Source: a virus
IMG/VR virus record: IMGVR_UViG_3300035698_025127
Coordinates: 1-64,000 of that record
Reading direction: 5' to 3' (one strand)
Length of the DNA: 64,000 nt
Shown: positions 28,723-63,166 of the stretch, in pieces
Position numbering within the stretch: the stretch's first letter is position 1
How the letters are laid out: each line of letters opens with the position of its first letter
Position numbers and translations under genes: made by a program
Notes under the pieces: model-generated
Told to the model about the DNA's origin: nothing
What the model saw: the letters and a program-made list of their open reading frames with translations, nothing else
Database searches by the model: none

Positions 28723-29466
28723 ATGAGTAATATGGACACAAAAGAATTGAAAAAACTATTAGAAGGTTTTATGAAGCAATTGGATGAATCTAATGCTGAT
28801 ACTTTGCCGGTATTAACCGAGGGGCGTCAACTTTTAATTGAAGACGTAGAAGACCCTTGTTGGCTGCCGACTGAAAAAAGTCTTAATGAGGCAAGTAGCA
28901 TTTTGTTAGAAGACCCTAAAGCTCCTATGAAACTAAGAGGATTATTTCAAGAGGCTGGCAAGCGTAACCAGAATGGCCGCGTATACCCCCTGAATGTGCT
29001 TGTACGCGAAGTAGAGCGCTTACAGCCTATTATCGAACAGAAACGTCTTACGGGCGAAATGGACCATCCTGAGACTTCTAAAATTCGTATGAAGGAAGCC
29101 GCATTTTATATTACAGGACTGTGGGTGGAAGGTGATAAAGTATATGGCGAAATTGAACCAACAACCGGCCATCTAGGTATGGAGATGCGTGCGCGTATTA
29201 GAGATAAATCTTTATTTGGTATTTCAAGTCGTGGTGTTGGTAGCCTCCAAAGAGAAGGCAACGACATTATTGTACAAGAAGATTATCATATGTTGACCTT
29301 TGATGCTGTAACTGATCCGTCAGTGTATAAGGCATTTTTATATAATGAAACGTCAAATGATGTGACTACCGAAGATAATAATAGAGCAGAGAATATTACT
29401 AATAATTTTTTTGAATTAATGGACAAATACTTCTCACAGAAAAAGTTGGAGTTAAATAATGACTAA
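28723..29466 (+). CDS. Prohead protease (gp21-like)
   Basis: GLFQEA..RNQNGRVYP, GEMDHP, GISSRGVGS, FDAVTDPS. Confidence 0.95.
   Translation: MSNMDTKELKKLLEGFMKQLDESNADTLPVLTEGRQLLIEDVEDPCWLPTEKSLNEASSILLEDPKAPMKLRGLFQEAGKRNQNGRVYPLNVLVREVERLQPIIEQKRLTGEMDHPETSKIRMKEAAFYITGLWVEGDKVYGEIEPTTGHLGMEMRARIRDKSLFGISSRGVGSLQREGNDIIVQEDYHMLTFDAVTDPSVYKAFLYNETSNDVTTEDNNRAENITNNFFELMDKYFSQKKLELNND
29370..29378 (+). promoter_or_regulatory. Candidate internal late promoter CGAAGATAA upstream of scaffold/capsid
   Basis: Same motif ~90 nt before scaffold start, inside the non-conserved tail of the protease gene. Confidence 0.35.
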
Positions 29467-31354
29467 AGAAAACGTTGTCGATACAAAAGCAGTAAGTGCT
29501 TTGCTAAGAAACCTTGATGGTGAAATGACTTCTCTACGAAATTATGTAGAGGAAAGTAAGAAATCAGATATGCCTAAAACTGATCCTAATGTGGCGCCTT
29601 CTAATTGGAAACGCAAGAAAAGCGAAGAAGAAGAGGAATTGCGTAGAGACCAAGTAGAGGCAGACAAAGATGAAGCTAAGCGCAAACGTAAGCAAGCTGA
29701 AGAAGACGAAGAAGAGTCAAAACGGAAACGTAAGAAAAGCGAAGAAGTTGAAGACGATGAAGAAAAAGCAAAATTAAAAGCCTGCGCTGATGAATTGGAA
29801 AATGATGCTAAGCGCAAAACTGCCGCAGCTGATGATCTTGAAGAATCAGCAAAACGCAAAGAAAACGAAATTGAAAAAGACGAAATTGCTGACGAAGCTG
29901 GCAAAATGCGTCAAGATGCATATGCAGACAAAGATGAAGCCAAACGTAAAATGGACCAAGCCGAAGAAGATGACAAAGAAGCCGAAGCTAAAGAAAAAAT
30001 GGCAGACGAAGAAGACGACGAAGACAAATGTAAGAAAATGAAGGAATCGGCTTCTGTTTTGCGTTCAGATGCTACGCGTAAGCGCATGGCCGCAGTTTCA
30101 TTAGAAGAAGACGCCGATGCTAGAATTGACAGAGCACAAGAGCTTGAAGCTTCCCTGTTTGTTTATGACGGTAATGTACAAAATAATGTCGAAGTTAGTG
30201 ATTCAACAAAAGAGTTTTTAAGCAATGAAGCTATTAAGTATCAGGAATTCTTTGAATCTAGTTCAGTTAAAGTAAATGAACTATATGATGCTTATTATGC
30301 AATTTCTGAAAGCCTAAGCAATGGTGAACCGCTCCGCAAATTTGCCGAAATTCTAAAAGAGTGGGACAATTTTGTTAGCAGTGAAGAAAATGATTATGAT
30401 GCAGGTATTGTAGAGACTAAAAAGTTATTAGGTTCACTTGATAAAGATATTTTAGGTGAAACTTATAATGAGCTGTCCGCATTACTAACTTCACATATCG
30501 AAGAATCTGAAAGTGTTATCGGCTTTTATGACATGGCAAAAGCTCTTCTTGAAGCTAAAGAAAAAGAAGACGACGACGAAGAAGCTAAAAAAGAAATTGA
30601 GCCTAAAGACGATGACGAAGCTGAAGAATCTAAGGCAAAATTAAAAAAAGCCATTGAAATTGTTGATAAAGTAAGCGAACACAATAGAATTCTGCAAAGA
30701 AAACTAGATAATGTAACAGCAAAAACACAAGATACTATTACTACAATTCGCAATAAGTACGAGTCTGTAATTGATTCTCTAAAAACTGATGTTGATGAGT
30801 CAAAAGACCGTGCCGAAAAGAAAATTGTAGCATTTATGGAAAATTATGTTCCTCGTCTAAAAGAAATTTTAAAAGAAGAGGAAGCATTATCTCCAGATTA
30901 TATTGATTCTACCAAGACATTGAACGAAATGCGTAAAATTCTTGGAATTACAGAATCTATTAATGTAACTGTTCAGGGCATAGATGAGTCTCGTGTATAT
31001 GACCTTGAATCAAAGAATTCACTATTAGAGAAGAACTTAGAGGATTTACGGGATCGTCTATCAAGGAAAAGTAGTTTAGTTGAAGCGCACAAGGCGCAAA
31101 ACGAACTTATTAAACGTATTCATGACGATGTTAATTTCGAAGACATTATGAAAAAAGTTTCAGACAAAATTCAAAATGTTTCTCAAATTGACGAAGCTCT
31201 ATCAGATTATCGAAATCAGAGTTTAATGGATGAAGCTGTGGATTCTTCTTTTGTATCACCAGAAGAAGTTATTAAGGAAAATAGTAATGAGGAAACCGTT
31301 GGTATGCCTTGGACTACTAGACTACAAGACCTTGCCGGTATTAATGGCAAATAA
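29459..31354 (+). CDS. Prohead scaffold (gp22-like)
   Basis: Highly charged coiled-coil, ends RLQDLAGI, between protease and capsid. Confidence 0.8.
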   Translation: MTKENVVDTKAVSALLRNLDGEMTSLRNYVEESKKSDMPKTDPNVAPSNWKRKKSEEEEELRRDQVEADKDEAKRKRKQAEEDEEESKRKRKKSEEVEDDEEKAKLKACADELENDAKRKTAAADDLEESAKRKENEIEKDEIADEAGKMRQDAYADKDEAKRKMDQAEEDDKEAEAKEKMADEEDDEDKCKKMKESASVLRSDATRKRMAAVSLEEDADARIDRAQELEASLFVYDGNVQNNVEVSDSTKEFLSNEAIKYQEFFESSSVKVNELYDAYYAISESLSNGEPLRKFAEILKEWDNFVSSEENDYDAGIVETKKLLGSLDKDILGETYNELSALLTSHIEESESVIGFYDMAKALLEAKEKEDDDEEAKKEIEPKDDDEAEESKAKLKKAIEIVDKVSEHNRILQRKLDNVTAKTQDTITTIRNKYESVIDSLKTDVDESKDRAEKKIVAFMENYVPRLKEILKEEEALSPDYIDSTKTLNEMRKILGITESINVTVQGIDESRVYDLESKNSLLEKNLEDLRDRLSRKSSLVEAHKAQNELIKRIHDDVNFEDIMKKVSDKIQNVSQIDEALSDYRNQSLMDEAVDSSFVSPEEVIKENSNEETVGMPWTTRLQDLAGINGK

Positions 31355-31376: not shown

Positions 31377-33197
31377 ATGTATAATAACAATGAACACGAA
31401 AAGATTGCTCTTAATCTGATTAAAGAATGGGCTCCATTGCTGGAAGGCCTAGAGAGCGAAGAAGAAGTAATCAACATGGCAATCATGTTGGAAAATACTT
31501 ATAACTGGCATGTAAATTCTAGTCCTGATGGACAGATGTTGCAGGAATTTACCGGTTCGAGTACTACAGGCCCTAGTGGTCAGAGCCCTCAAATCGCAAC
31601 CTTCAAGCATTATCTGATGCCACTTATTCGCAGAATGTATCCGGCATTGATTACCCCTACTCTAGTTGGTGTAACTCCAATGACAAGCCCGGCTACTCAG
31701 GTATTCTATCTGAAGTATTTCTACAATGGAATGGTAAATCAGCAAGATCCATGGGGAACTACTCCTGCTGCTAAAGGCCGTACAACTGCAGGTACCGAAT
31801 ATGCCAACTTTATTGGTGATACATGGAATGTTGATCCATATTACTCAATGCAGACAGTATATCGCGAGCCGCTTTCAACTGGCGGTGGAACTATTGGTGC
31901 AGGACTTGACTTTAGTGGTGCCCCTGATACTGGAACTCACGTTGCCGTACAAGCTGCATCTCCAATTTTTGATAGTAGCACAAAGGTTTATCTGATTGCA
32001 ACTGACGCTGCAACTCATGCTGCTTCTACAAAAGTTGCTCTTATCGAAGTTTCGGGTTTTGCTAATGGTACTACAACCGGCACTTTGGCAGTTTCACAAA
32101 TTGCAACCCTAGCAGGTTCGGACGCTTTCGATAATGCCGTAACTGGTGGTATTACTGCTGCAACTGGCACATTCTCCATGACTGTTAGCAATATTGGTAA
32201 TTATGATTTTATTCTGTCAAATACAGAATCACTAAATGTTACCACTCATAACGGCCTAAATACTTTGACATACGACTTCAATATGGAAAATAATCCTCGT
32301 ATGCCTGAAATCTCACTGGAAATCGCCAGCACCACAGTGAACGTGGAAACACGTAAGCTGCGTACTGTATGGTCAATCGAAAGTGCTCAGGATATGCGTG
32401 CGATGCATCATATTGATGCTGAAAAAGAATTGGTTTCACTGCTTTCAAGCGAAATTGCAGCTGAAATTGACCGTGAAACTATTAATAACTTAATCACTAA
32501 TAGCGGTCATCGTCGTAATTACGATTACAATAATCCGTTTATTGTGGGTGGTTTTGCCGTTGGTGGTGGAACTGGCCTGCTTAACTGGAATCAGTCAGCT
32601 TCTCTGCCTGCAGCCGGTGGAAATCCATGGTTCCCGGTTGGTGGTTCTGGTAATCTGCGCGACAGAAATGAAGCTCTTATGTATCAAATTCTTGAAATGT
32701 CTAATGATATTTATCGTCAGACACTTCGTGGCGCAGCTAACTTCATTATCACTTCGCCGGAAATTGCTTCTAAGCTGGAGCAACTGAGTGAATTCGAAGC
32801 AACTCAGAATAGTGTGATGGATTATTCTCTGGGTATCCAGCAAGCTGGTGTTATTCAGGGTAAATATCGCCTTATTAAGGATCCTCTATTCCCGAGTGAT
32901 CTGATTCTGTTAGGTTATAAGGGTGCTAACAATATGGATGCTGGTTACCACTATTGTCCATATGTACCTCTACAGTTAACCCCAACCATGATGGATACTC
33001 GTTCAACAAACGCAGTGAAAGCCATTATGACAAGATATGGTAAATTTATGCCTGAGAATGGTAGTAGATTCTACGGTATCATCAAGGTTAGCAACTTAAC
33101 CGCACAGGGTAGCGCAACACCTTCAGGATTCCCAATTCAGACTAGCACCAGCATTTCTGGTAGTAATCTGATTGACGGCGACTCTGATCTAGTTTAA
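31377..33197 (+). CDS. Major capsid protein (gp23-like)
   Basis: EWAPLLE, LIRRMYP, VGVTPMTSP, TRKLRTVWSIE.AQD, EIAAEIDRE, DAGYHYCPYVPL, IMTRYG. Confidence 0.97.
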   Translation: MYNNNEHEKIALNLIKEWAPLLEGLESEEEVINMAIMLENTYNWHVNSSPDGQMLQEFTGSSTTGPSGQSPQIATFKHYLMPLIRRMYPALITPTLVGVTPMTSPATQVFYLKYFYNGMVNQQDPWGTTPAAKGRTTAGTEYANFIGDTWNVDPYYSMQTVYREPLSTGGGTIGAGLDFSGAPDTGTHVAVQAASPIFDSSTKVYLIATDAATHAASTKVALIEVSGFANGTTTGTLAVSQIATLAGSDAFDNAVTGGITAATGTFSMTVSNIGNYDFILSNTESLNVTTHNGLNTLTYDFNMENNPRMPEISLEIASTTVNVETRKLRTVWSIESAQDMRAMHHIDAEKELVSLLSSEIAAEIDRETINNLITNSGHRRNYDYNNPFIVGGFAVGGGTGLLNWNQSASLPAAGGNPWFPVGGSGNLRDRNEALMYQILEMSNDIYRQTLRGAANFIITSPEIASKLEQLSEFEATQNSVMDYSLGIQQAGVIQGKYRLIKDPLFPSDLILLGYKGANNMDAGYHYCPYVPLQLTPTMMDTRSTNAVKAIMTRYGKFMPENGSRFYGIIKVSNLTAQGSATPSGFPIQTSTSISGSNLIDGDSDLV

Positions 33198-39855: not shown

Positions 39856-42800
39856 ATGACAACATTACTAAGCCCCACAGTTGTTACTAGTGAAACTGAC
39901 TTGTCTTTTGTGGCACAGTCAATTTCGACAAGTATTGCTGGAATTGTTGGTGCTGCAAGTAAAGGTGCAGTAAATAAAAGGATATACTTGTCATCACAAG
40001 ATGACGTTATCATTAAATTGGGTAAACCACTATTGACAGATTACGGTGTTCAAACCGCTTCTCTGTTTATGAAACAGTCAAGCAACGGTTGGTATAATCG
40101 TATTGCTTCGCTACGCGGAAATGATCCTGTGGCAACTGCAAATACTGATACGAGGGCTCTGTTAACTCAAACCTCGCTTACAGCATTTGTAGCACCATCA
40201 GATATTATTGCTCTGGCTGGCGGAAGTTCTCAGAATCTTAGGTTGCGTTTTGATGATACTAATGATATTACAATAACTTTTACAACTGCTATTGTAACTT
40301 CTTTGGTGCGCTCAACAATGCTTGACACTATGATTGCGTTGACTGGTTGGTTGGACGGCGTACTAAGTTTAAATGGGACTGCTGAACCACGCTACGGGTT
40401 TACCGGCTATACTCAACTTGGTGATGGTTCTTACGTTCTGACAATTCAGAGCGAATTAAAATCCGGATTAAGCAAAATTGAAGTAATGGTCCCAACTGGA
40501 ACCGATGCTGCAAGTTATTTTGGCTGGACTTCCGGTGTTACCAGTGAAACCGGTACGCGTTCGATTGTATTGAATACCAATTTGACGTCCGCTGTCGTGA
40601 CTTCTTTGGCACAAGGCGTAAGTGGATATAACCTGGGAACATCTGCAACATCGACATCTGTAAATTCTGCTACATATAACCTTGGTGTTTTAGCAGATGG
40701 TAGTCTTGATGTAAATAATATGGGCGCATCCCCTAATGCATATTCTTTTGTATCAGTTTTGGAAAGCAATACGACTACTACAATGAATCTTGACAGTGAT
40801 GGAATTCACGCACAGGCTCAAGCTGCACCGTACGCATTTAATCCGGTTGTGCAAATTGTTGTTGACGGATATACAACTTCTATTGAAATTCCATTAACAA
40901 CATGGACAATTGGTGCTATTACAAATGCTAATATGCAAGATTTTGCAACTGCTATTAATACAGCTACTCCTTCTGGGTTGGGCGATATTGCATTCTACAA
41001 TACTGCAACTAAGAAAATGTATTTGCAATCTCCGGGCAAAAGCGTTGGCTATACTTATATTAGTGTACCGTTGGAACAATCTGATACGGTAGCAGGAAAT
41101 GCTGCTATGGCTATTAGAGCAATGAATTTTTTAGGGTTTGATTTTCAAGACGTTAAGGTCCAAAATCAAATAACTATTGAAACTGAAACAAGTTCTGAAA
41201 CAATTTCGTTTGATTATACTACTGTACATTCTTACGGATTGTCTCCGGCATCATTAACCACAGCACAAGTTGTTAGTCTTATTAATGCACAATTCGGATC
41301 TACTATTGCAAGTATTGATAGCGGATTAAATATTTCTCTGGCTAACGACTATCGTGGTATTGACGGGTTTGTTAAGGCAAGTGGATATCAAACAAGTAAA
41401 TTGGCTATTGATTCTACTGCCTTTGACTATACTAGCAGTTGGTATTTACCTTCAAGTTCTCCGATTCGTTTAATCGGCGCCGAAACTGCTACTGCGGCTG
41501 GGTTAAATAATACATATCTAAAATGCAGTTTTGGAACGGATTGGGCAATTGTGCGTATTAATAATACTACATATGCATCTGATCCTGTGGCAATTGGATC
41601 TGCAAAACTAGATGTAGAGGCAACTTCTTTTGCTGCAACTCCTACTCAAATTAATGCATTTAAAATTGCTTTGGCCGCTGTATTATTCGGGCATGTTATA
41701 AGTTCTCCGGGCGATGGATTTGTTATTGGCGAATGGACTGTTGGAACATTAGTAGCAGCAGGAACCGAATTGAGAGTTTATAACGGTGGTGGTCTTACTG
41801 CTGGACGAGTAAGAGTTGTTGATAGTAATGATAATACTGCAACTACTTATCCAGCTTCTCATGAAGGTAATATTTCATATGTTGTAACAGCATTGCCTGC
41901 ACCAGATACAACAACAGTAACACTTCGGGATGCCGGTGGAACAAATGTTCTTACTGTGACATCATTACATGATGATAGAGAACTTCACTTATATGTAGAT
42001 AATACGCCAGCATTGACGTTTGCCGGTAAAACAATGACCGGATTCGCAAGCTCTGGTAGTTATGCTACTTGGCTACAAAAATCATCAAATACTGTAACAG
42101 GTGATGAAACAGCCGAATTGACAATTGGCGCAGGCGGCGATTTATCTTCTGTAGGTCAACTTTCAGTTAGTACAACAGATGCTTCATGGGCATTAGTATT
42201 AGACTTATTGTTTGATGATGGTGCCGGAACTGATTATTCTGCATTGGTTGCTGTTGTGCCAAGCGGAACTACGGCATTTACAACTTCAATTAAGGGTGGA
42301 CATAGTATAGCAGTTGCGGAATGCCCTGTTGACGTTATTACTCTTGCACAGGGTAATGGATATGATGTTACATGGACTGCTGGCACCGGTTCTTATGCAT
42401 ATGTTAATACTGCAACGGGTACTTTAGATTTTGCTCTTGATGCACTAAAATTAAATGGTCAGGATTTACCTTCTGCTGGTGCTGGCGGCAAAGCCAAGGG
42501 TTATTTGATTGGTAATGCCGACATTGAATATATTTTCCGTCCATCAACTGTTACACCGGGCGCATATGCAGCTCAGTGGCAGAATGGTAGAATTACAACT
42601 TCTCGTGTAGCTTATAACGATATAACTTCAACATTTGTTGCCACTGCTCGTTCGTTCTTCCCGAATGATGATTGGGGTGGCGGCTACAATAGGTTTGCTG
42701 TTGTCGTAGATGATGATTATACCGTAGATATTGATTTTAATGATTATACATTTGTTGATCAAAGTGCTGCAACCGCAAGTGAAACTGCCGATGCTCTTAA

Positions 42801-44568
42801 TGCTCGTGCAAAACTCATTAATAGTACGCTAAATGGTTTTGCCACAGCAGTAAGCAATAAGATTGTATTAACAAGTCCTACAAAAGGCGTTTCAAGTCAG
42901 CTTCGCGGAGTTATTGATAATACCGCATTAGATTTTTCTGCTATTGTTAGTACACCTGCAACTGGTAGTGGTTATCCCAATCTATCCTTTAAGGTGGATG
43001 GCGGGACTACAAATACTATTGATTTTACTGACTATGCAGGTATTTTGATTGCAGATCAAAGTGCGGCTACTGCTGATGAAGTCGTTGCTTCCATTCTCAG
43101 AGGAACATCTCTAAGTAGCAGTCTTGTCTATACAGACGGCGTTGGTGTTGCAACTACAGTAAATGTCAAGAGTCTTGTTACCGGCACAAGTGGTACCGTG
43201 GAAATTCTGACAGCTAATCAGGCACTGGGTGACGAGTTTGGTATTCAAACTGTTTATACTGGGACCCAAACTGAAGTTGCTGCCGGCGTTGCTTTTGCAG
43301 TAAGTCCTGGTACTTGGGCAAATGCTGACGAGGATGCTCTGAAAATTAAATTTACTGACGAAAATCCGCTGTTCTTTGCGCCTAATACTTCTCGTGTAGA
43401 TATTTATAGTGGTTCTACTATTTTAGCATCATATCGCGAAGTTTCTCCTGATCCTGATGCTGATGGCAGCCATGGAACAACCGGAGAGGGAACATTCATT
43501 GAGGACGAACTTGGTAATAGCAATGACGTTGCCAACGGAACTAATCCTAATCCATATTTCGCGTTTGACCTTGACGAAGATTTAACTACAGACGTCATTG
43601 ATTATAATGGTGGAAAATTTAAGTCTGGAACTTATTCGTTAAGTGGCGGAGCTGATGGTATCAATGAATTAACTGGAAGTGATTTTGTTGGTGTTTCTTA
43701 TGATTCCACATATGGTGGACCTACAGGAATTCAGAATTTTGCTGATAAGCATTCATCATTTATTAACTTCCTGGTTGCCCCAGGCCGTTCAGATAGTGCT
43801 GTTATTCAGTCATTATTCTCTGTAGCTGAAGAACGCGGCGATTGTTTGGCCCTTGTGGATCCGCCTATCTCTCTGAGACCAGAACAAGTAGTGGATTGGC
43901 ACAATGGCCTAGGTTATGGTAATAGTGTGGCATTTAACACAAGTTACGCAGCATTATACGGTACTTGGTTCTATCATAGTGATCCGTATAATAACACGAA
44001 TATTTATTTACCACCTAGTGCATATCTGCTAAAGCAGTATGCATATAGCGATTCCATTTCGGAACCATGGTTTGCAGTAGCAGGTGATACGCGCGGTAAA
44101 GTTACCGGTGCTATTGGGGTTGAATATTCACCAAACGAGGGTGAACGCGACTTAATGTACGGCAATGGAAATGCAGTGAATCCGATTGTTAATTTCGTAC
44201 AAAGCGGAATTAAAATCTGGGGCCAGAAAACCCTTTCACGCACAGAGTCTTCATTGAATCGTATCAATGTGAGGCGTTTATTCTTGTTTGCTCGTAGAAC
44301 CGTAGAATTAGCCTCACAAGTTATATTGTTTGAACCTAATGATGCGTTGACCCGTAAGAAATTGGTGGAAATAATTGAAGGTGCTATGTCCGATATTCTA
44401 TCAAGACGCGGTATTACAAGATTCCAGGTTGAAGACAAGACTGATGCTTTCCTGATTAATCAGAATAGAATCAAGATTGTTGTGTTTGTTGAACCACAAC
44501 AAACTGCTGAATTCATTGAGATTCCGTTTATTGTAACCGGTAGCGGACAAGCATTTATCGAAGGTTAA
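39856..44568 (+). CDS. Tail sheath protein (gp18-like) with ~1000-aa insertion
   Basis: LSPTVVTSETDLS, GIVGAASKG; C-terminal ERGDCLALVD, PWFAVAG.TRG, IWGQKT, RINVRRL, FEPND. Confidence 0.95.
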   Translation: MTTLLSPTVVTSETDLSFVAQSISTSIAGIVGAASKGAVNKRIYLSSQDDVIIKLGKPLLTDYGVQTASLFMKQSSNGWYNRIASLRGNDPVATANTDTRALLTQTSLTAFVAPSDIIALAGGSSQNLRLRFDDTNDITITFTTAIVTSLVRSTMLDTMIALTGWLDGVLSLNGTAEPRYGFTGYTQLGDGSYVLTIQSELKSGLSKIEVMVPTGTDAASYFGWTSGVTSETGTRSIVLNTNLTSAVVTSLAQGVSGYNLGTSATSTSVNSATYNLGVLADGSLDVNNMGASPNAYSFVSVLESNTTTTMNLDSDGIHAQAQAAPYAFNPVVQIVVDGYTTSIEIPLTTWTIGAITNANMQDFATAINTATPSGLGDIAFYNTATKKMYLQSPGKSVGYTYISVPLEQSDTVAGNAAMAIRAMNFLGFDFQDVKVQNQITIETETSSETISFDYTTVHSYGLSPASLTTAQVVSLINAQFGSTIASIDSGLNISLANDYRGIDGFVKASGYQTSKLAIDSTAFDYTSSWYLPSSSPIRLIGAETATAAGLNNTYLKCSFGTDWAIVRINNTTYASDPVAIGSAKLDVEATSFAATPTQINAFKIALAAVLFGHVISSPGDGFVIGEWTVGTLVAAGTELRVYNGGGLTAGRVRVVDSNDNTATTYPASHEGNISYVVTALPAPDTTTVTLRDAGGTNVLTVTSLHDDRELHLYVDNTPALTFAGKTMTGFASSGSYATWLQKSSNTVTGDETAELTIGAGGDLSSVGQLSVSTTDASWALVLDLLFDDGAGTDYSALVAVVPSGTTAFTTSIKGGHSIAVAECPVDVITLAQGNGYDVTWTAGTGSYAYVNTATGTLDFALDALKLNGQDLPSAGAGGKAKGYLIGNADIEYIFRPSTVTPGAYAAQWQNGRITTSRVAYNDITSTFVATARSFFPNDDWGGGYNRFAVVVDDDYTVDIDFNDYTFVDQSAATASETADALNARAKLINSTLNGFATAVSNKIVLTSPTKGVSSQLRGVIDNTALDFSAIVSTPATGSGYPNLSFKVDGGTTNTIDFTDYAGILIADQSAATADEVVASILRGTSLSSSLVYTDGVGVATTVNVKSLVTGTSGTVEILTANQALGDEFGIQTVYTGTQTEVAAGVAFAVSPGTWANADEDALKIKFTDENPLFFAPNTSRVDIYSGSTILASYREVSPDPDADGSHGTTGEGTFIEDELGNSNDVANGTNPNPYFAFDLDEDLTTDVIDYNGGKFKSGTYSLSGGADGINELTGSDFVGVSYDSTYGGPTGIQNFADKHSSFINFLVAPGRSDSAVIQSLFSVAEERGDCLALVDPPISLRPEQVVDWHNGLGYGNSVAFNTSYAALYGTWFYHSDPYNNTNIYLPPSAYLLKQYAYSDSISEPWFAVAGDTRGKVTGAIGVEYSPNEGERDLMYGNGNAVNPIVNFVQSGIKIWGQKTLSRTESSLNRINVRRLFLFARRTVELASQVILFEPNDALTRKKLVEIIEGAMSDILSRRGITRFQVEDKTDAFLINQNRIKIVVFVEPQQTAEFIEIPFIVTGSGQAFIEG

Positions 44569-58732: not shown

Positions 58733-60106
58733 ATGTCACAAGAAGCTGCTCTACAACAGGCAATTAGTAATGCACCCAAGACAGTAGGATTAGGAAAACA
58801 ACTAGAAAAACAAATTATTAGCAATTCACTTGAAAATAGAGAATTCTTTTTATATGCTTATGAACTTATTGAACCTTCACATTTTGACGATCAAAAAAAT
58901 AGTGTCATATGGAGTTTCTTAAAGAAATATTATTCTACATATAAGATAGTGCCTTCCAGGCTTGTTTTGGAAAATGCATTATCAAAGAAAAATATTGATT
59001 TTGAAATACCAGATGTTGATTATAGTTCTATTGATTATGTCAAAGAAGAGGTCTTTAGAATCATAAAATTGCAGAAGTACGAACGTTTTTTGTTAAGTGC
59101 TATTTTACAGGCAAGCGAAACAAACCCGGAATATGACAAGTTATTTGAAGAATTCAAAAAAGTAATTCACATTCAAAATGAAATGTCTGCCGGTATTCAG
59201 TATTTTGATGTAAGAACTCGAATGGAGCGTGCTTCTCAAATGTGGAATGATAGAATTTCTTCAGGATTTCCATCGCTTGATATGCATTTGCCGGGTGGTG
59301 GATTCGGCAGAAAAGAAGCTGCTGCAGTCATGGCCCCGCCGGGTGTTGGAAAATCGTTATGGCTAGTAAATTTCGGCGCGAAGTTTGTTCAACGTGGCAT
59401 GAAAGTCTTACATTTTACACGAGAAGTTTCTGAAGAAATTCTAAGTTTGCGATATGACAGTTGTTATCTTGGTAAAAATTCTGATGATGTACTAAGCAAT
59501 ATTGATTTATCTGTTCAACAGATTGAAGGGTTGCACAGTATTATTTCAAAAGAAAAAGATAAAAATCTGTTATGGGTAAAAGAATTCCCAACTGGTGCAT
59601 CATCTATTAATGAAGCACAGGCTTATTTGCAAATGCTTAAAGATAGGTACAATTTTAAGCCTGATGTAATTATTGATGATTATTTAGACCTTGCGCGCTC
59701 TTCAACTTCTTACAAGTCTTCTTATGAAGAACAGGCAAGTGTTTTCAAAGAGTTTCGAGGGTGGATGGTAAAAGAGAGTATGTGTGGTTTAACCGCACTA
59801 CAAACAACGCGAGAAGCGGAAGGGCTAGTGGAGCCCATTAAAATGAAACATACGTCTGATAGCTATCAAAAACCACGTTTACTTGATTTACTTATGACAA
59901 TAAACGAGTCTCCTAATGACAAAATAAATAGCAAACAGCGTCTGTATTTAGCCAAAAACAGAAATAAGGCTGCTGATACCTCCATTATTTTTGGAGTAAA
60001 TAAACCCAAAATGAGGGTTTTAGATCAAGGCGAAACATATGCCAACAGTCGCGCGGATGCGCCTAGAAGCATTTCGGAAAGGATACATGATGACACTCCA
60101 TTCTAA
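58733..60106 (+). CDS. Replicative helicase (gp41/DnaB family)
   Basis: APPGVGKS, R.DS, VKEFPTG, PDVIIDDYLDL, TALQT.R, KNR. Confidence 0.92.
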   Translation: MSQEAALQQAISNAPKTVGLGKQLEKQIISNSLENREFFLYAYELIEPSHFDDQKNSVIWSFLKKYYSTYKIVPSRLVLENALSKKNIDFEIPDVDYSSIDYVKEEVFRIIKLQKYERFLLSAILQASETNPEYDKLFEEFKKVIHIQNEMSAGIQYFDVRTRMERASQMWNDRISSGFPSLDMHLPGGGFGRKEAAAVMAPPGVGKSLWLVNFGAKFVQRGMKVLHFTREVSEEILSLRYDSCYLGKNSDDVLSNIDLSVQQIEGLHSIISKEKDKNLLWVKEFPTGASSINEAQAYLQMLKDRYNFKPDVIIDDYLDLARSSTSYKSSYEEQASVFKEFRGWMVKESMCGLTALQTTREAEGLVEPIKMKHTSDSYQKPRLLDLLMTINESPNDKINSKQRLYLAKNRNKAADTSIIFGVNKPKMRVLDQGETYANSRADAPRSISERIHDDTPF

Positions 60107-60716
60107 TATCGAAGAAGTTATTATTAATGTGCAAGTAGGTACTGACAGATTAAACCGTTCCTTGACAGACGATTTAAAGATTGACGAGGACCGTATTAAT
60201 CGCTGGTTAATTGAAATTCCGTCAAAAACCGCTTATTGGGGTGCATGGTCAAAACGTGCAAAAATGGAACGACTAAGAGCGGAATACAATAAAGAATCTG
60301 CTCTTATTCAATCAAAAGCAATGGCTCGAAGTGCATTAAATGCTTCCAAAAGAGAAGACTTATTAGCATATGCCAGGGCTAATACGGAAGAAAAGAAAGC
60401 TCTTTTGAAACCAAAGGATGTTACTGAAACCGAAGTGACAGACTTGGCAAAGAATATGCCTGCTTATGTCGATTCTATAGCATTATATTTGAAAACTCGT
60501 GAAGCCGATGAGATGTTAGATGCAGCCATGGAAGCTTTTAAAATTTGTCATGGCGCTTTAATGACATTGGCAGCTAATATGCGTACCGAATACAAAACAT
60601 ATGGAAACCATATTAAGCGTGAAGATTCAGATTTTTCTGGTAAAAATACTTTAGCGAAAGCATCTAAAAATGCCGTAGAATATGCTACAAAAACTATAAA
60701 GGGAATACATGAATAA
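60090..60716 (+). CDS. UvsY-like recombination mediator
   Basis: DLKIDE...IP...AYW...TETEV coiled coil, between helicase and SSB. Confidence 0.55.
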   Translation: MTLHSNIEEVIINVQVGTDRLNRSLTDDLKIDEDRINRWLIEIPSKTAYWGAWSKRAKMERLRAEYNKESALIQSKAMARSALNASKREDLLAYARANTEEKKALLKPKDVTETEVTDLAKNMPAYVDSIALYLKTREADEMLDAAMEAFKICHGALMTLAANMRTEYKTYGNHIKREDSDFSGKNTLAKASKNAVEYATKTIKGIHE

Positions 60717-60936
60717 GTACACAAAGGAAGAGTTAGAGGTCATTAAAATGTGGGAATTTTTTCTTAATGACACTAGTGTTCCAGAAAAGTTATTGTATGA
60801 AAAGGCGATGGAATTGGAAAATATAATGAATGAAATGAGAAAAAATCCATGGTCGCTTTCTATTGAGCCTTTAAATGAAGTTTTTCATAAAATGCAATGT
60901 GATTTTCCAAAACAAAAAGAGGTAAATAATGAATAA
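60709..60936 (+). CDS. Small protein resembling major capsid N-terminus (copy 1)
   Basis: IKMWEFFL...EKAMELEN vs capsid IKEWAPLL...NMAIMLEN. Confidence 0.6.
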   Translation: MNKYTKEELEVIKMWEFFLNDTSVPEKLLYEKAMELENIMNEMRKNPWSLSIEPLNEVFHKMQCDFPKQKEVNNE

Positions 60937-61330
60937 GTACACGCACGAACAATTGATTAATTTTGTGACAAGGTGGTCTGAAATTCTTTCAAAGTTTGAC
61001 ATTTCGGAAGAGCAAATAACCGAGTATGCTGTTAGATTAGAAGAAGCCGATAAACTTCCACTTAATCCTCTTGGTGAAAGTGTTAATACAATTATGAAAA
61101 AAATGTACAAAGAGCTTCCACTTCGTAGTGATAAAAAAGTTCAAGAAATTGAGACTTCAGAAACTGAAAACTATGATTCTTTAAAACTGTTATTTGATGA
61201 GTTAGAGCAAAAACTAGAAAGCGCATTAAATAGAATTGTAAAATTAGAAACAAATTCTAATAGGTACGTTCACCCGCAAATGCGTAGGGACGGATATTGT
61301 GATGGGTTGAGGCGTAGAGGTGGGGGGTAG
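60929..61330 (+). CDS. Small protein resembling major capsid N-terminus (copy 2) plus coiled coil
   Basis: HEQL..RWSEIL..SEEQI..AVRLE...IMKKMYKEL vs capsid HEKI..EWAPLL..SEEEV..AIMLE...LIRRMYPAL. Confidence 0.65.
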   Translation: MNKYTHEQLINFVTRWSEILSKFDISEEQITEYAVRLEEADKLPLNPLGESVNTIMKKMYKELPLRSDKKVQEIETSETENYDSLKLLFDELEQKLESALNRIVKLETNSNRYVHPQMRRDGYCDGLRRRGGG

Positions 61331-61333
61331 ATA

Positions 61334-61555
61334 ATGTCAAAGAAAATTATTACAAGAAGTATTGTATTTGTTGGCAATCGCGGTATCCCCGAAGAACTTG
61401 AAAATAAAACTGATATTAAGTTATTTGAATATTTGACTGACCATTGTGAAGGCACAATTGTTATGTTTGATAATATGAACCGATCTTGGCGTTGGGGCTG
61501 TAAAAAGCGGGAACGCATGAAAAAGTTACCACATGCAGTTACGCTAATAATTTAG
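61334..61555 (+). CDS. Hypothetical protein
   Basis: 73-aa ORF. Confidence 0.55.
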   Translation: MSKKIITRSIVFVGNRGIPEELENKTDIKLFEYLTDHCEGTIVMFDNMNRSWRWGCKKRERMKKLPHAVTLII

Positions 61556-61564
61556 GAGAACATT

Positions 61565-61921
61565 ATGGGATTTTTAACAGGCTGGAATTTTGCAGCATTA
61601 TTGATTACTGGCTCATTTATTTTTGGCATTATGGCCAAGCTAAAAATGGTCTTTCCGGCCTTTTTTAAGAGACCTCTTGTAAATAGGTTCAAACCTACGT
61701 ACGCTATTATAGCGGGAGTAGTTATTTGTCTATTACCCGGAATATTGGAAGGCGAACTTCCGATACCGTTAAAAATATTCTTAGGTGCGAATGCCGGTTT
61801 ATATTCGCACTTCTTTAACTCTGTTCTCAGAAAATTCATTCGTAATCAGGTCGCAACCAATTATATTAAGGCCAATGATTACAATGAAAATGAAGAAGAT
61901 TTTATTTCTTCGCGAGAATAG
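61565..61921 (+). CDS. Three-TM membrane protein, holin-like
   Basis: Three hydrophobic segments, charged C-tail, AGGAG RBS. Confidence 0.5.
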   Translation: MGFLTGWNFAALLITGSFIFGIMAKLKMVFPAFFKRPLVNRFKPTYAIIAGVVICLLPGILEGELPIPLKIFLGANAGLYSHFFNSVLRKFIRNQVATNYIKANDYNENEEDFISSRE

Positions 61922-62054
61922 TACGTTAAGATATAGAAATCCACTGTATGGATGATACTTGGGAACCAAAAACTGTTTGCCGAATGGCTTAACTTGTAAC
62001 AATGTCTTGATACTTTTCATCCGGGTATCATGTAAAGAAAGAAAGAGAAACGAA

Positions 62055-63122
62055 ATGACTCATGGCGTAGATATCAAAAAATTACTTGCAAACGCGGAAA
62101 ACATGAAAAATGGCGGCGGGTTTAATAGTAATTTTTGGAGCCCTAAAGAGGCCAAAACAACTATTAGAATTATCCCGCCTAATCCTGAAATTCAAGGTAT
62201 GCTCCCGGGCGTGTTCTTTGTAAAACACAATGAACATAATATCAATGGCCAACGTATTGGTTGTGCTGCCGAAATTCTTCAGGAAGATTGTCCTATTTGC
62301 ACGAAACGAATCGAAATTTACCGCGAACGTAAAGGCAATCCTGCAAGCTGTACCCCCGAGAGAGAGCAGTTTCTCGCTGCAACTCACAGTTCAAGACGTT
62401 TTCTTGCCTTAGTTATTGTTAAAGGCGAAGAAGACAAGGGTGTACAAATTTGGAGTTTCGGCAAGAAAATGTTAGACAAGTTGCTTTCATTTTATGTTGA
62501 TTTCTGTGCTGATGGCGATGATGAATTGTCAGACATGGACAATGGTCGTGATATTATTATCAACAAGACGATTATTCATACTGAAAACGGAAATTTCCCC
62601 AACTATGATAATTCCATTCCGTCTCCGAAATTAACGGCAGCCGGCACCCCCGAAATGATTGCAAAATGGTGGACAGAACAACCTAAATTGTTAGAAATTG
62701 CTTCTGCAAACATTAAGTCCTATTCTGAAGTTGCGCAGATTGCAGAACAACTCATGGAATCATTTGAGAGAAAGGCCCCACAAGCTCCACAAACGCCTCA
62801 GGCGTTACAGAGCTATGCTGCCCCTACCGCTAGTACTCCTGGCACCCCGCAATCAACTGTGGGCGGCCCCCCGGAACTTAGTATTGCTGGTGTACTGGGT
62901 GAGATTGATCTATCTAGCCCCGAAGCACTCATTGCTTTTCAGGGATGGCAAAAAAATGGCAATAACGATTTACAGTTATTGTTAGAAGTTGCCAATTCTT
63001 ATCCTAAACCTGGTACAACAGCCGCAGCAGCGCCTCAAAAGCCAGCGGAAAAAGTACAGACAGAAATTTATGATGATCCCGAAGCATTGTTAGCTAAAAT
63101 TCAAAACGAATTAGATGAATAA
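62055..63122 (+). CDS. Single-stranded DNA-binding protein (gp32-like)
   Basis: FWSPK..TIRIIP, H, C..CPIC, GVQIWSFGK, GRDIII, acidic C-tail. Confidence 0.88.
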   Translation: MTHGVDIKKLLANAENMKNGGGFNSNFWSPKEAKTTIRIIPPNPEIQGMLPGVFFVKHNEHNINGQRIGCAAEILQEDCPICTKRIEIYRERKGNPASCTPEREQFLAATHSSRRFLALVIVKGEEDKGVQIWSFGKKMLDKLLSFYVDFCADGDDELSDMDNGRDIIINKTIIHTENGNFPNYDNSIPSPKLTAAGTPEMIAKWWTEQPKLLEIASANIKSYSEVAQIAEQLMESFERKAPQAPQTPQALQSYAAPTASTPGTPQSTVGGPPELSIAGVLGEIDLSSPEALIAFQGWQKNGNNDLQLLLEVANSYPKPGTTAAAAPQKPAEKVQTEIYDDPEALLAKIQNELDE

Positions 63123-63135
63123 TAAGTAAGGGAGA

Positions 63136-63166
63136 AAAGGGAGGGGTAATTCCCTCCCTTTGTTTC
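63136..63166 (+). terminator. Intrinsic terminator after SSB
   Basis: AAAGGGAGGG-gtaatt-CCCTCCCTTT GTTT. Confidence 0.75.

What the first reader, a model, noticed from the sequence alone, without database searches (positions are those of the whole stretch)
60709..61330. Two tandem mini-genes copy the N-terminus of the phage's own major capsid protein, inside the replication module
Seen: both genes begin with the same 14 nt (ATGAATAAGTACAC), indicating duplication. Both align by eye to the capsid N-terminus at 31377. Capsid: NEHEKIALNLIKEWAPLLEGL-ESEEEVINMAIMLEN...LMPLIRRMYPAL. 60929: YTHEQLINFVTRWSEILSKFDISEEQITEYAVRLEE...VNTIMKKMYKEL. 60709: VIKMWEFFLNDTSVPEKLLYEKAMELEN...NEVFHKMQCDF. They keep the propeptide-like helices and first conserved helix but lack the linker carrying the likely LQE cleavage site and the whole HK97 core. 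They lie ~29 kb from the head genes, between UvsY-like and SSB genes. Knowledge: T4 gp23 has a cleaved N-terminal propeptide, and capsid proteins trigger defences such as CapRel and Lit. Inference: early-expressed capsid mimics acting as decoys for capsid-sensing defence, as regulators of prohead assembly, or as inhibitors of competing phages' assembly.
Basis: partly seen in the sequence, partly recalled or inferred. Interest (0 to 1): 0.8.

Follow-up and report, generated by a model that had tools for sequence, protein, structure and literature searches.

The report
Tandem mini-genes faintly resembling capsid propeptide
Two small neighbouring paralogous genes in a salt-lake phage's replication operon have a first ~40 residues that faintly resemble the start of the phage's own capsid protein, but the match is borderline and a capsid-decoy role is not supported.

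Summary
The window is the first 64 kb of a 119,932-bp, distant T4-like phage genome. The two ORFs (60709-60936, 75 aa; 60929-61330, 133 aa) are real-looking genes. They are tandem paralogs (BLASTP E 5e-6, 32% identity) and share an exact 14-nt start that occurs nowhere else in the genome. They sit inside a helicase-to-gp32 operon.

They are ORFans. No relative turned up in Pfam, PHROGs, 50,697 phage records, IMG/VR or 1.84 billion representative proteins.

The capsid resemblance covers only residues ~2-41, a predicted helix-loop-helix. It aligns N-terminus to N-terminus with the gp23-type capsid propeptide. It includes three of the four invariant propeptide columns (W18, L38, E39).

The significance is borderline:
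- Each mini-protein separately ranks the capsid N-terminal window 1st of 1,095 own-proteome windows (combined E ~0.005-0.01).
- HMMER gives E 0.043.
- hhalign gives E ~1.
- A profile of 48 gp23-family propeptides does not detect the mini-proteins (E 4.5 and 14).

No structural confirmation was possible.

I put homology at about even odds. If it is real, a propeptide-like docking handle, analogous to T4 capsid-targeting sequences, fits better than an immune decoy.

The parts
60709..60936 (+). Mini-gene 1 (P0001, 75 aa, pI 4.9). Its start overlaps the stop of the upstream 225-aa gene within ATGAATAA.
   Evidence: ORF and translation. AAGGGA ribosome-binding site about 6 nt upstream. Codon usage favours this frame by 0.24 logL per codon. 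Identical in contigs of other runs.
60929..61330 (+). Mini-gene 2 (P0002, 133 aa, pI 5.5). Its start overlaps the stop of mini-gene 1 in the same ATGAATAA arrangement.
   Evidence: GAGGT ribosome-binding site. Codon usage +0.31 per codon. Paralog of P0001, E 5e-6.
60709..60722 (+). Shared 14-nt start ATGAATAAGTACAC, copy 1 (encodes MNKYT).
   Evidence: The 14-mer is found only at 60709 and 60929 in the 120-kb genome.
60929..60942 (+). Shared 14-nt start, copy 2.
60712..60831 (+). P0001 residues 2-41: the part that aligns with MCP residues ~5-43 (W15, A33, L36-E37-N38).
60932..61042 (+). P0002 residues 2-38: the part that aligns with MCP residues 3-39 (W16, A34, L37-E38). Predicted helices 6-22 and 27-42.
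61172..61327 (+). P0002-specific C-terminal extension: a long predicted helix (residues 82-110) followed by a basic, Gly-rich tail ending RRRGGG. It has no counterpart in P0001 or the MCP.
31377..33197 (+). gp23-type major capsid protein (P0003, 606 aa).
   Evidence: Pfam Gp23 1.7e-71 and PHROG 138 2.5e-74.
31383..31505 (+). MCP residues 3-43: first two propeptide helices (model H4-17, H19-22, H28-48; pLDDT about 77 for residues 11-40). This is the region the mini-proteins resemble.
31539..31547 (+). MCP L55-Q56-E57, the likely prohead-protease cleavage site ([LI]-x-E followed by FT[GA]S).
   Evidence: The motif is conserved in 6 of 6 closest MCPs, P0003-P0008. The L/I-X-E rule is from PMC9026906, section 2.5.
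28723..29466 (+). gp21-type prohead maturation protease.
   Evidence: PHROG 207, 1.4e-42.
58733..60106 (+). DnaB-like replicative helicase, in the same transcription unit.
   Evidence: PHROG 19, 3.7e-66.
60039..60716 (+). 225-aa protein of unknown function directly upstream. Not demonstrably UvsY.
   Evidence: PHROG 1069, unknown function, 3.3e-7. No Pfam hit. No PDB relative.
62052..63122 (+). gp32-type single-strand DNA-binding protein.
   Evidence: Pfam gp32, 3.3e-20.
63136..63161 (+). Strong terminator-like hairpin (11 pairs plus a T run) that closes the helicase-to-gp32 unit.

Best explanation
The two ORFs are a lineage-restricted tandem pair of small, acidic, helical proteins. They are translationally coupled inside the helicase-to-gp32 replication operon of a ~120-kb distant T4-like phage.

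The two proteins share a ~65-residue N-domain. I judge it about even odds that the first two helices of that domain (residues ~5-42) are a fast-diverged copy of the first two helices of the phage's own gp23-type capsid propeptide. On that reading, the 5' ~120 nt of the capsid gene was captured, fused to new sequence, and then duplicated in tandem.

If so, the most likely way of working is as a propeptide look-alike. The module would dock on whatever the capsid propeptide docks on inside the assembling prohead, presumably the scaffold core. The proteins would then either ride into the prohead as small internal proteins, functionally like T4 capsid-targeting sequences, or tune assembly and maturation. 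I do not think they act as decoys for capsid-sensing immunity.

Shown: the genes are real, they are paralogs, they lie in this operon, they are ORFans, and there is an in-register borderline resemblance. Inferred: the homology, the origin, the docking partner, and any presence in the virion.
For: Paralogy and the conserved start:
- BLASTP E 5e-6.
- A unique 14-nt identical start against 49% identity elsewhere. This points to constraint on the extreme N-terminus or the 5' end.

Resemblance to the MCP N-terminus:
- The MCP is the first non-self hit by three scoring schemes: HMMER profile E 0.043 over 615 ORFs, summed Smith-Waterman score 102 against the next best 81, and hhalign.
- Each paralog separately ranks the MCP N-terminal window 1st of 1,095. 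Brown-combined P is 9e-6 to 1.4e-5, E 0.004-0.01. The statistic is T 31.2 against the next best 18.8.
- 0 of 5,000 composition-preserving shuffles reach the observed score.
- The three pairwise alignments are mutually consistent and anchored at both N-termini.
- The shared columns include W18, L38 and E39, which are 3 of the 4 invariant columns in the first 60 residues of an 18-sequence MCP alignment. They also include the near-invariant A35, and N40 in P0001.
- hhalign against a propeptide profile of the related MCP clade, built without this phage's own MCP or its closest relative P0004 (P0005-P0024, 17 distinct N-termini), still gives P 1.2e-3 in the same register.
- Predicted helix boundaries agree: P0002 H6-22/H27-42 against MCP H4-22/H28-48.

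Context:
- The phage has a gp21-type protease, and the MCP has a conserved [LI]xE cleavage site.
- In T4, short N-terminal propeptides are sufficient to target otherwise unrelated proteins into the prohead core (PMC9026906 section 2.6 passages; PMC3012670 passages).
Against: - HMMs of the gp23-family propeptide (48 distinct N-termini) do not detect the mini-proteins. Ranks are 7 and 18 of 403 listed rows, E 4.5 and 14. Without the own MCP the ranks are 6 and 24.
- The most conspicuous propeptide motif (P-L-L-E-G after the Trp) is absent.
- hhalign significance disappears after correcting for ~221 comparisons (P 0.0051).
- BLASTP with composition correction is not significant.
- The second block fails.
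- The score falls to background beyond the closest MCP relative: own MCP 102, P0004 79, P0005 63. This is equally expected for a chance match to one sequence.
- There is no aligned, conserved [LI]xE site in the two mini-proteins.
- Both are acidic, unlike T4 internal proteins, which PMC9026906 describes as basic.
- The genes sit in a replication operon rather than with the head genes.
- No relatives exist to test conservation.
- The structure models are too poor to compare.
- The finding was selected post hoc from a very large scan. This inflates the apparent significance.
Confidence: 0.4

Rival explanations
1. The resemblance is chance or convergence. On this view the two proteins are ordinary fast-evolving phage ORFans: small helical adaptor or host-takeover proteins made with the replication proteins, with no evolutionary or functional link to the capsid. 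For example, they might bind the replisome, or gp32 through the basic RRRGGG tail of P0002. The amphipathic helix-loop-helix with one Trp and an L-E pair would then merely happen to look like the propeptide.
For: - The family-level propeptide HMMs fail (E 4.5 and 14).
- hhalign gives E ~1 after multiple testing, and BLASTP gives E 5.7-24.
- Block 2 fails.
- The genes are translationally coupled to a helicase, a 225-aa unknown and the gp32 operon, which ends at a terminator.
- The ESM Atlas structure neighbours of P0001 are generic helical hairpins such as UVR and YlbF.
- The finding was picked post hoc from a large scan.
Against: - Both paralogs, only 32% identical to each other, independently pick the same MCP window as rank 1 of 1,095. 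The combined E is 0.004-0.01.
- The alignment is anchored N-terminus to N-terminus and hits the family's invariant columns.
- HMMER gives E 0.043.
Confidence: 0.4
2. The mini-proteins are early-made capsid mimics that soak up or blind a capsid-sensing host defence of the CapRel, Lit or Avs type.
For: Support is circumstantial only. The genes are small, lineage-specific and tandemly duplicated, and are probably expressed before the late genes. That profile fits many anti-defence genes.
Against: - The mini-proteins lack the whole mature MCP, and the resemblance covers only the propeptide, which is cleaved off.
- In the passages I read of bioRxiv 10.64898/2026.01.04.697583, Avs-type sensors bind newly made MCP monomers through core folds such as the A-domain.
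- Three literature searches found no report of a capsid-fragment decoy among the papers listed.
- I did not scan PADLOC or any anti-defence family library. The Pfam and PHROG searches found nothing relevant.
Confidence: 0.07
3. The mini-proteins regulate the prohead protease as competitive substrates. The propeptide-like N-domain, rich in L/I-x-E motifs, would occupy the gp21-type protease and delay maturation.
For: P0002 has 4 [LI]xE motifs in its first 50 residues and P0001 has 2 in 75. The genome average is 1.0 per 100 aa. A gp21-type protease is present.
Against: - The motif is short and is expected in Glu- and Leu-rich helices.
- The motif positions are not conserved between the two paralogs.
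- There is no homology to any known protease inhibitor.
Confidence: 0.08
4. The ORFs are not genes, and are spurious open frames.
For: There are no homologues anywhere.
Against: - The ORFs are tightly packed with stop-start overlaps and ribosome-binding sites.
- Frame-specific codon usage is comparable to gp32 and the MCP.
- The amino-acid similarity between the two (E 5e-6) sits on 49% nucleotide identity, which implies selection on the protein.
Confidence: 0.03

Closest known systems
N-terminal propeptide (about 65 aa in T4) of gp23-family major capsid proteins
   Same: The position at the extreme N-terminus is the same. Both are a predicted helix-loop-helix of the same length. The Trp, an Ala, and the L-E(-N) at the end of helix 2 fall on the family's invariant or near-invariant columns.
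   Different: - There is no P-L-L-E-G motif, no conserved [LI]xE cleavage site and no mature HK97 domain.
- The family HMM does not detect the mini-proteins.
- They are encoded ~27.5 kb away, in a replication operon.
T4 internal proteins IPI/IPII/IPIII and their capsid-targeting sequences (CTS)
   Same: These are small, fast-evolving proteins that share essentially only an N-terminal segment. In T4 that segment suffices to deliver cargo to the prohead core, where gp21 removes it (PMC9026906 sections 2.5-2.6; PMC3012670). Here the two paralogs share MNKYT and a 14-nt start, and the phage has a gp21-type protease.
   Different: - A T4 CTS is 10-19 residues and ends in L/I-X-E. Residues 8-10 here are E-L-E and Q-L-I.
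- The mini-proteins are acidic, not basic.
- The resemblance is to the capsid propeptide, not to an IP.
- Presence in the virion is untested.
SPN3US head paralogs gp53/gp54, which have identical N-terminal 15 residues within long propeptides
   Same: They are paralogous proteins whose extreme N-termini stay identical while the rest diverges. The authors interpret this as a targeting and processing region (PMC5694885 passages).
   Different: They are ~31-kDa abundant virion proteins of a giant phage, with Pfam PF12699 and proven processing. No sequence relation to the mini-proteins was found.
T4 gp24 (vertex protein), the classic paralog of gp23
   Same: It is a within-genome duplication of the capsid gene (PMC5694885).
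   Different: gp24 is a full-length HK97-fold copy. This phage has no second MCP-like gene (phmmer of the MCP against all 615 ORFs finds only itself). The mini-proteins would be a copy of the 5' end only.

Membership tests
gp23-family capsid propeptide (homologue or copy) | Significant match to a profile of gp23-family N-termini | tested here: not met
   HMMs built from 48, 46, 17 and 29 distinct N-termini give the mini-proteins E 4.5-20 (P0002) and 14-39 (P0001), at ranks 6-42. hhalign single-comparison P is 1.2e-3 to 3.1e-3 for near-clade profiles and 0.13 for far ones.
gp23-family capsid propeptide (homologue or copy) | Significant match to the phage's own MCP N-terminus, in register | tested here: inconclusive
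   HMMER E 0.043. hhalign P 5.7e-4 for the single comparison but about E 1 proteome-wide. Smith-Waterman empirical combined E 0.004-0.01. BLASTP not significant.
gp23-family capsid propeptide (homologue or copy) | Conserved motif set: Trp, then P-L-L-E-G, then A-x-x-L-E-N | tested here: inconclusive
   Trp, Ala and L-E(-N) are present in both. P-L-L-E-G is absent in both.
gp23-family capsid propeptide (homologue or copy) | [LI]-x-E protease site followed by the mature HK97-fold domain | tested here: not met
   There is no aligned conserved site, and the proteins end after 75 or 133 aa with no Gp23 domain.
T4-type CTS-bearing internal head proteins | N-terminal propeptide of 10-19 residues ending in L/I-X-E | tested here: not met
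   Residues 8-10 are ELE (P0001) and QLI (P0002). The first [LI]xE motifs lie at 29-31 and 25-27. The rule is from PMC9026906.
T4-type CTS-bearing internal head proteins | Shared N-terminus among otherwise divergent small proteins, in a phage with a gp21-type protease | tested here: met
   MNKYT and a 14-nt identical start. Protease PHROG 207, 1.4e-42.
T4-type CTS-bearing internal head proteins | Basic protein packaged in the head and processed by the prohead protease | not testable with these tools
   The pI values of 4.9 and 5.5 argue against the 'basic' part. Packaging and processing need proteomics.
Anti-defence decoy of capsid sensors | Carries the MCP surface that known sensors bind (folded core or A-domain) | tested here: not met
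   Only the propeptide-like ~40 residues resemble the MCP. Sensor targets are taken from passages of bioRxiv 10.64898/2026.01.04.697583.
Anti-defence decoy of capsid sensors | Binds or neutralises a defence protein | not testable with these tools
   The host and its defence systems are unknown. The phage is known only from metagenomes labelled 'salt lake'.

The most novel reading that the evidence does not exclude
A phage has copied the first two helices of its own capsid propeptide onto small unrelated proteins and then duplicated the result. On this reading it uses the capsid's own prohead-docking handle as a portable address tag or assembly modulator, made from the replication operon. This would be a 40-residue, capsid-derived counterpart of the T4 capsid-targeting sequence. 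It would also offer a natural probe for the still unknown contact between the gp23 propeptide and the scaffold core.
Probability: 0.3. Interest if true: 0.65.

Novelty: new variant of a known kind. Interest (0 to 1): 0.35.

Why it matters
The 2023 T4 head review says that how proteins are localised to the T4-type scaffolding core 'remains mysterious' (PMC9958956 passage). The partner of the gp23 propeptide is not known either. If these mini-proteins really are free-standing propeptide modules, they would be a compact natural reagent for mapping that interaction. They would also be an example of a structural-gene fragment recruited as an address tag.

If the resemblance is chance, they are ordinary phage ORFans. 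The finding then mainly shows how easily amphipathic helix pairs mimic homology.

Tried and rejected
- Homologue searches all came back empty apart from the queries themselves: tblastn against 50,697 phage records; the word-index search (1 hit, itself, among 23 candidates); an IMG/VR pattern scan (280 stretches, 0 relatives); hmmsearch of 1.84 billion representatives (only the 2 queries); the PDB sequence profile (7 sequences at E 0.13-1.5, none relevant); and the ESM Atlas (feature score 0.81 for P0002, which is chance level, none for P0001, and generic helical hairpins by structure).
- The replication modules of related phages could not be reached. 0 of 5 IMG/VR records holding related MCPs contain either a mini-protein or a gp32 match, and all 5 are fragments. 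Single-protein scans of IMG/VR with gp32 and with the helicase found nothing. The best relative is a 138-kb metagenome contig with an MCP 63% identical (L085). It is not held for further fetching, and my attempt to address it by locus id was a format error. Whether syntenic mini-genes exist there remains open.
- The AF2 model of P0002 (2-row alignment) was too poor to use, at pLDDT 47. Foldseek against BFVD gave 0 of 68 matches at E<=0.001.
- The AF2 model of the full MCP (18 rows) had mean pLDDT 50. Only residues ~11-40 were usable.
- Complex prediction of MCP residues 1-60 with P0002 residues 1-66 returned 'no answer' (score 0.00, controls not run). That is no evidence either way.
- No RNA holder is listed among the 24 runs that hold the stretch, so there are no expression data.
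- Contigs of 3 further runs are identical across the genes, so there is no population variation to test selection.
- The T4 late-promoter motif TATAAATA is not enriched (15 found, 13.2 expected) and does not sit upstream of the genes. The sigma-70-like scan is at shuffle level (38 found against 33.3 +/- 6.4).
- A first hhalign-against-all-ORFs script timed out. I re-ran it on the 223 + strand ORFs of at least 50 aa.
- Supplementary files of the cited papers were not consulted.
Full report
SETTING

The window is the first 64 kb of a single-contig virus record of 119,932 bp with 36.7% G+C. Almost all long ORFs lie on the + strand.

The head module is T4-like. It holds a large terminase, a portal, a gp21-type prohead protease (PHROG 207, 1.4e-42), a 631-aa highly charged scaffold-like ORF with no family hit, and a gp23-type major capsid protein (MCP) at 31377-33197 (Pfam Gp23 1.7e-71). 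There is no second MCP-like (gp24-type) gene.

The MCP is far from cultured phages: the best tblastn hit covers 83% of it at 31% identity. A metagenomic clade of MCPs 41-80% identical does exist. Contigs of 24 listed public runs, all labelled salt lake metagenome, hold part or all of the region.

THE OBSERVATION

Both ORFs exist (60709-60936, 75 aa, P0001; 60929-61330, 133 aa, P0002).
- Each start codon overlaps the stop of the gene before it inside the octamer ATGAATAA.
- Each has a purine-rich ribosome-binding site.
- Frame-specific codon usage supports both frames, at +0.24 and +0.31 logL per codon, against +0.38 for gp32 and +0.44 for the MCP.
- Contigs from three other runs cover the genes with 0 differences, so the arrangement is not an assembly accident.

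The two proteins are paralogs (BLASTP 27.7 bits, E 5e-6, 22/68 identical). The 14-nt identical start is real and occurs only at these two sites in the genome. The remaining aligned nucleotides are 49% identical, and the longest other identical run is 6 nt. So the extreme 5' end or N-terminus (MNKYT) is under special constraint, or was recently homogenised.

CONTEXT

The gene order is:
- DnaB-like helicase (PHROG 19, 3.7e-66)
- a 225-aa protein of unknown function (PHROG 1069; no Pfam or PDB relative, so 'UvsY-like' is not verified)
- mini-gene 1
- mini-gene 2
- a 73-aa ORF
- a 118-aa hydrophobic ORF
- gp32 SSB (Pfam 3.3e-20)
- a strong terminator-like hairpin at 63136-63161
- a 130-aa ORF
- a RecA/UvsX-like ORF

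 With overlapping or abutting reading frames and no room for a promoter of their own, the mini-genes are most simply co-transcribed with the replication genes. This is an inference. No RNA run holds the phage.

ORFAN STATUS

Neither protein matches Pfam at E<=10. In PHROGs, P0001 has no hit, and P0002 has 7 weak hits with best E 0.032; none is the MCP family. There is no relative in 50,697 phage records, in the 5.8-billion-cluster word search, in IMG/VR, in an exhaustive HMM search of 1.84 billion representatives (only the two queries), or among PDB sequences. ESM Atlas neighbours are at chance level or are generic helical hairpins.

IS THE CAPSID RESEMBLANCE MORE THAN CHANCE?

For:
- An HMM of the two N-domains, searched without filters against all 615 ORFs of at least 40 aa in the phage, gives the MCP as first non-self hit. 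E is 0.043, with profile positions 6-42 on MCP residues 7-43.
- hhalign against the N-termini of the MCP and its closest relative gives P 5.7e-4 over 39 columns at 33% identity.
- The same register returns against a propeptide profile of the related clade built without this phage's own MCP or its closest relative P0004 (P 1.2e-3).
- With plain Smith-Waterman scores, 0 of 5,000 shuffles of the MCP N-terminus reach the observed value.
- Against 1,095 real windows of the phage's own ORFs, each mini-protein separately ranks the MCP N-terminal window first. The Gumbel-fit E is 1.4 for P0001 and 0.14 for P0002.
- The two queries are only weakly correlated over the background (r 0.17-0.28). Combined by Brown's method, they give P about 1e-5, E 0.004-0.01. 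The statistic is 31.2 against a next-best 18.8.
- The three pairwise alignments agree with one another and are anchored at both N-termini.
- The shared columns include W18, L38 and E39, which are three of the only four invariant columns in the first 60 residues of an 18-sequence MCP alignment. They also include near-invariant A35, and N40 in P0001.
- Predicted helices coincide: P0002 6-22 and 27-42; MCP 4-22 and 28-48. MCP pLDDT is about 77 there.

Against:
- BLASTP with composition correction is not significant.
- hhalign of the mini-profile against all 223 + strand ORFs of at least 50 aa again puts the MCP first, but at P 0.0051. That is about what the best of ~221 comparisons yields by chance.
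- Most importantly, the gp23 propeptide is a well-conserved module. 59 of 88 collected MCPs carry the motif by my regular expression, and 48 of those N-termini are distinct. HMMs of it do not detect the mini-proteins (E 4.5 and 14, ranks 7 and 18; without the own MCP, ranks 6 and 24). The P-L-L-E-G core of the motif is missing.
- Scores fall from the own MCP (102) to its 80%-identical relative (79), and reach background at 63% identity (63). That pattern fits either a lineage-specific copy or a chance match to one sequence.
A sub-profile of it ranks the MCP 69th, and at an unrelated position.
- Structure could not arbitrate. The P0002 model has pLDDT 47, and Foldseek finds 0 of 68 matches at E<=0.001.

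There is also a look-elsewhere cost, because the finding was selected from a very large scan. I put homology at about even odds.

WHAT IT MOST LIKELY IS AND DOES

From the T4 literature I read:
- gp21 cleaves after L/I-X-E.
- It removes a 65-residue propeptide from gp23.
- It removes 10-19-residue N-terminal capsid-targeting sequences from the internal proteins.
- These sequences are sufficient to carry foreign proteins into the prohead core.

(PMC9026906 sections 2.5 and 2.6 and other passages; PMC3012670 passages.)

How core localisation works 'remains mysterious' (PMC9958956 passage). In the giant phage SPN3US, two head paralogs keep identical N-terminal 15 residues within their propeptides (PMC5694885 passage).

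This phage has the protease, and its MCP has a conserved [LI]xE / FT[GA]S site (6 of 6 closest MCPs). If the N-terminal module of the mini-proteins is a diverged copy of the propeptide's first two helices, the economical reading is that it binds the propeptide's partner in the assembling prohead. That would make the proteins either hitch-hiking internal proteins or modulators of assembly and maturation.

Points against simple membership in the CTS class are:
- there is no L/I-X-E at residues 8-10;
- both proteins are acidic (pI 4.9 and 5.5);
- they lie in the replication operon.

The decoy model has no positive evidence. The mini-proteins lack the folded MCP core that the sensors described in the passages I read recognise. 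Three literature searches turned up no report of capsid-fragment decoys or of partial MCP duplications. Their scope was Creative Commons PMC plus bioRxiv, and I saw listings only apart from the passages cited.

The equally weighted rival is that the resemblance is coincidental. The proteins would then be ordinary replication-operon ORFans, possibly partner-binding adaptors. P0002 adds a long helix and a basic RRRGGG tail.

VERDICT

The tandem duplication and the conserved start are confirmed. The capsid-propeptide resemblance is real as a pattern but only borderline as evidence of homology, and it is confined to about 40 residues. The second block, the UvsY label and the decoy function are not supported.

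Novelty, if the resemblance is true, would be a new variant of N-terminal prohead-targeting or propeptide modules. Interest is moderate to low until relatives or proteomics are available.

Noticed in passing
window 31377-31560, and proteins P0003-P0090: The gp23 propeptide carries a widely conserved two-helix motif (Trp, then L-L-E-G, then A-x-L-E-N). It is present in 59 of 88 collected MCP relatives, including very distant ones of ~390 aa. The closest clade (6 of 6) keeps an [LI]-x-E / F-T-[GA]-S junction, which is a likely protease site after E57.
   Followed up: partly
window 29459-31354: A 631-aa ORF lies between the prohead protease and the MCP. It is extremely rich in Lys, Glu and Asp, with repeated KRK...EE stretches, and has no PHROG hit. 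By position it is presumably the scaffold. It overlaps the protease gene by 8 nt.
   Followed up: no
window 63136-63161: A strong intrinsic-terminator-like hairpin (11 pairs, 6 G-C, followed by a T run) sits right after gp32. It marks the end of the helicase-to-gp32 unit.
   Followed up: no
window 60039-60106: The 225-aa ORF as listed overlaps the helicase gene by 68 nt. A later in-frame Met (residues 16-18 are Y-M-M) may be the true start. The protein matches only PHROG 1069 (unknown function), not UvsY.
   Followed up: partly
window 61259-61327 (P0002 residues 111-133): P0002 has a disordered C-terminal tail with a Cys and a basic, Gly-rich end (RRRGGG). It is absent from P0001. It could bind nucleic acid, or the acidic C-terminus of the neighbouring gp32.
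   Followed up: no
window 61334-61921: Two more ORFans follow the mini-genes: a 73-aa ORF, and a 118-aa hydrophobic ORF that is probably a membrane protein. Neither has any Pfam or PHROG hit.
   Followed up: partly
window 8877-15950 and 39856-44568: Two very long + strand ORFs (2,357 and 1,570 aa) lie in the structural half of the genome. I did not examine them.
   Followed up: no
whole genome G000:C1: The T4 late-promoter octamer TATAAATA is not enriched (15 on the + strand against 13.2 expected) and is not positioned before the head genes. This phage probably uses a different late-promoter signal.
   Followed up: partly
window 60000-61600 in runs X2, X3, X4: Contigs from three other runs labelled salt lake metagenome match the region with 0 differences, so the population is near-clonal there. 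The closest phage-database hit to the propeptide is the MCP of Rhodothermus phage RM378 (47% identity over residues 9-42, E 0.04).
   Followed up: partly
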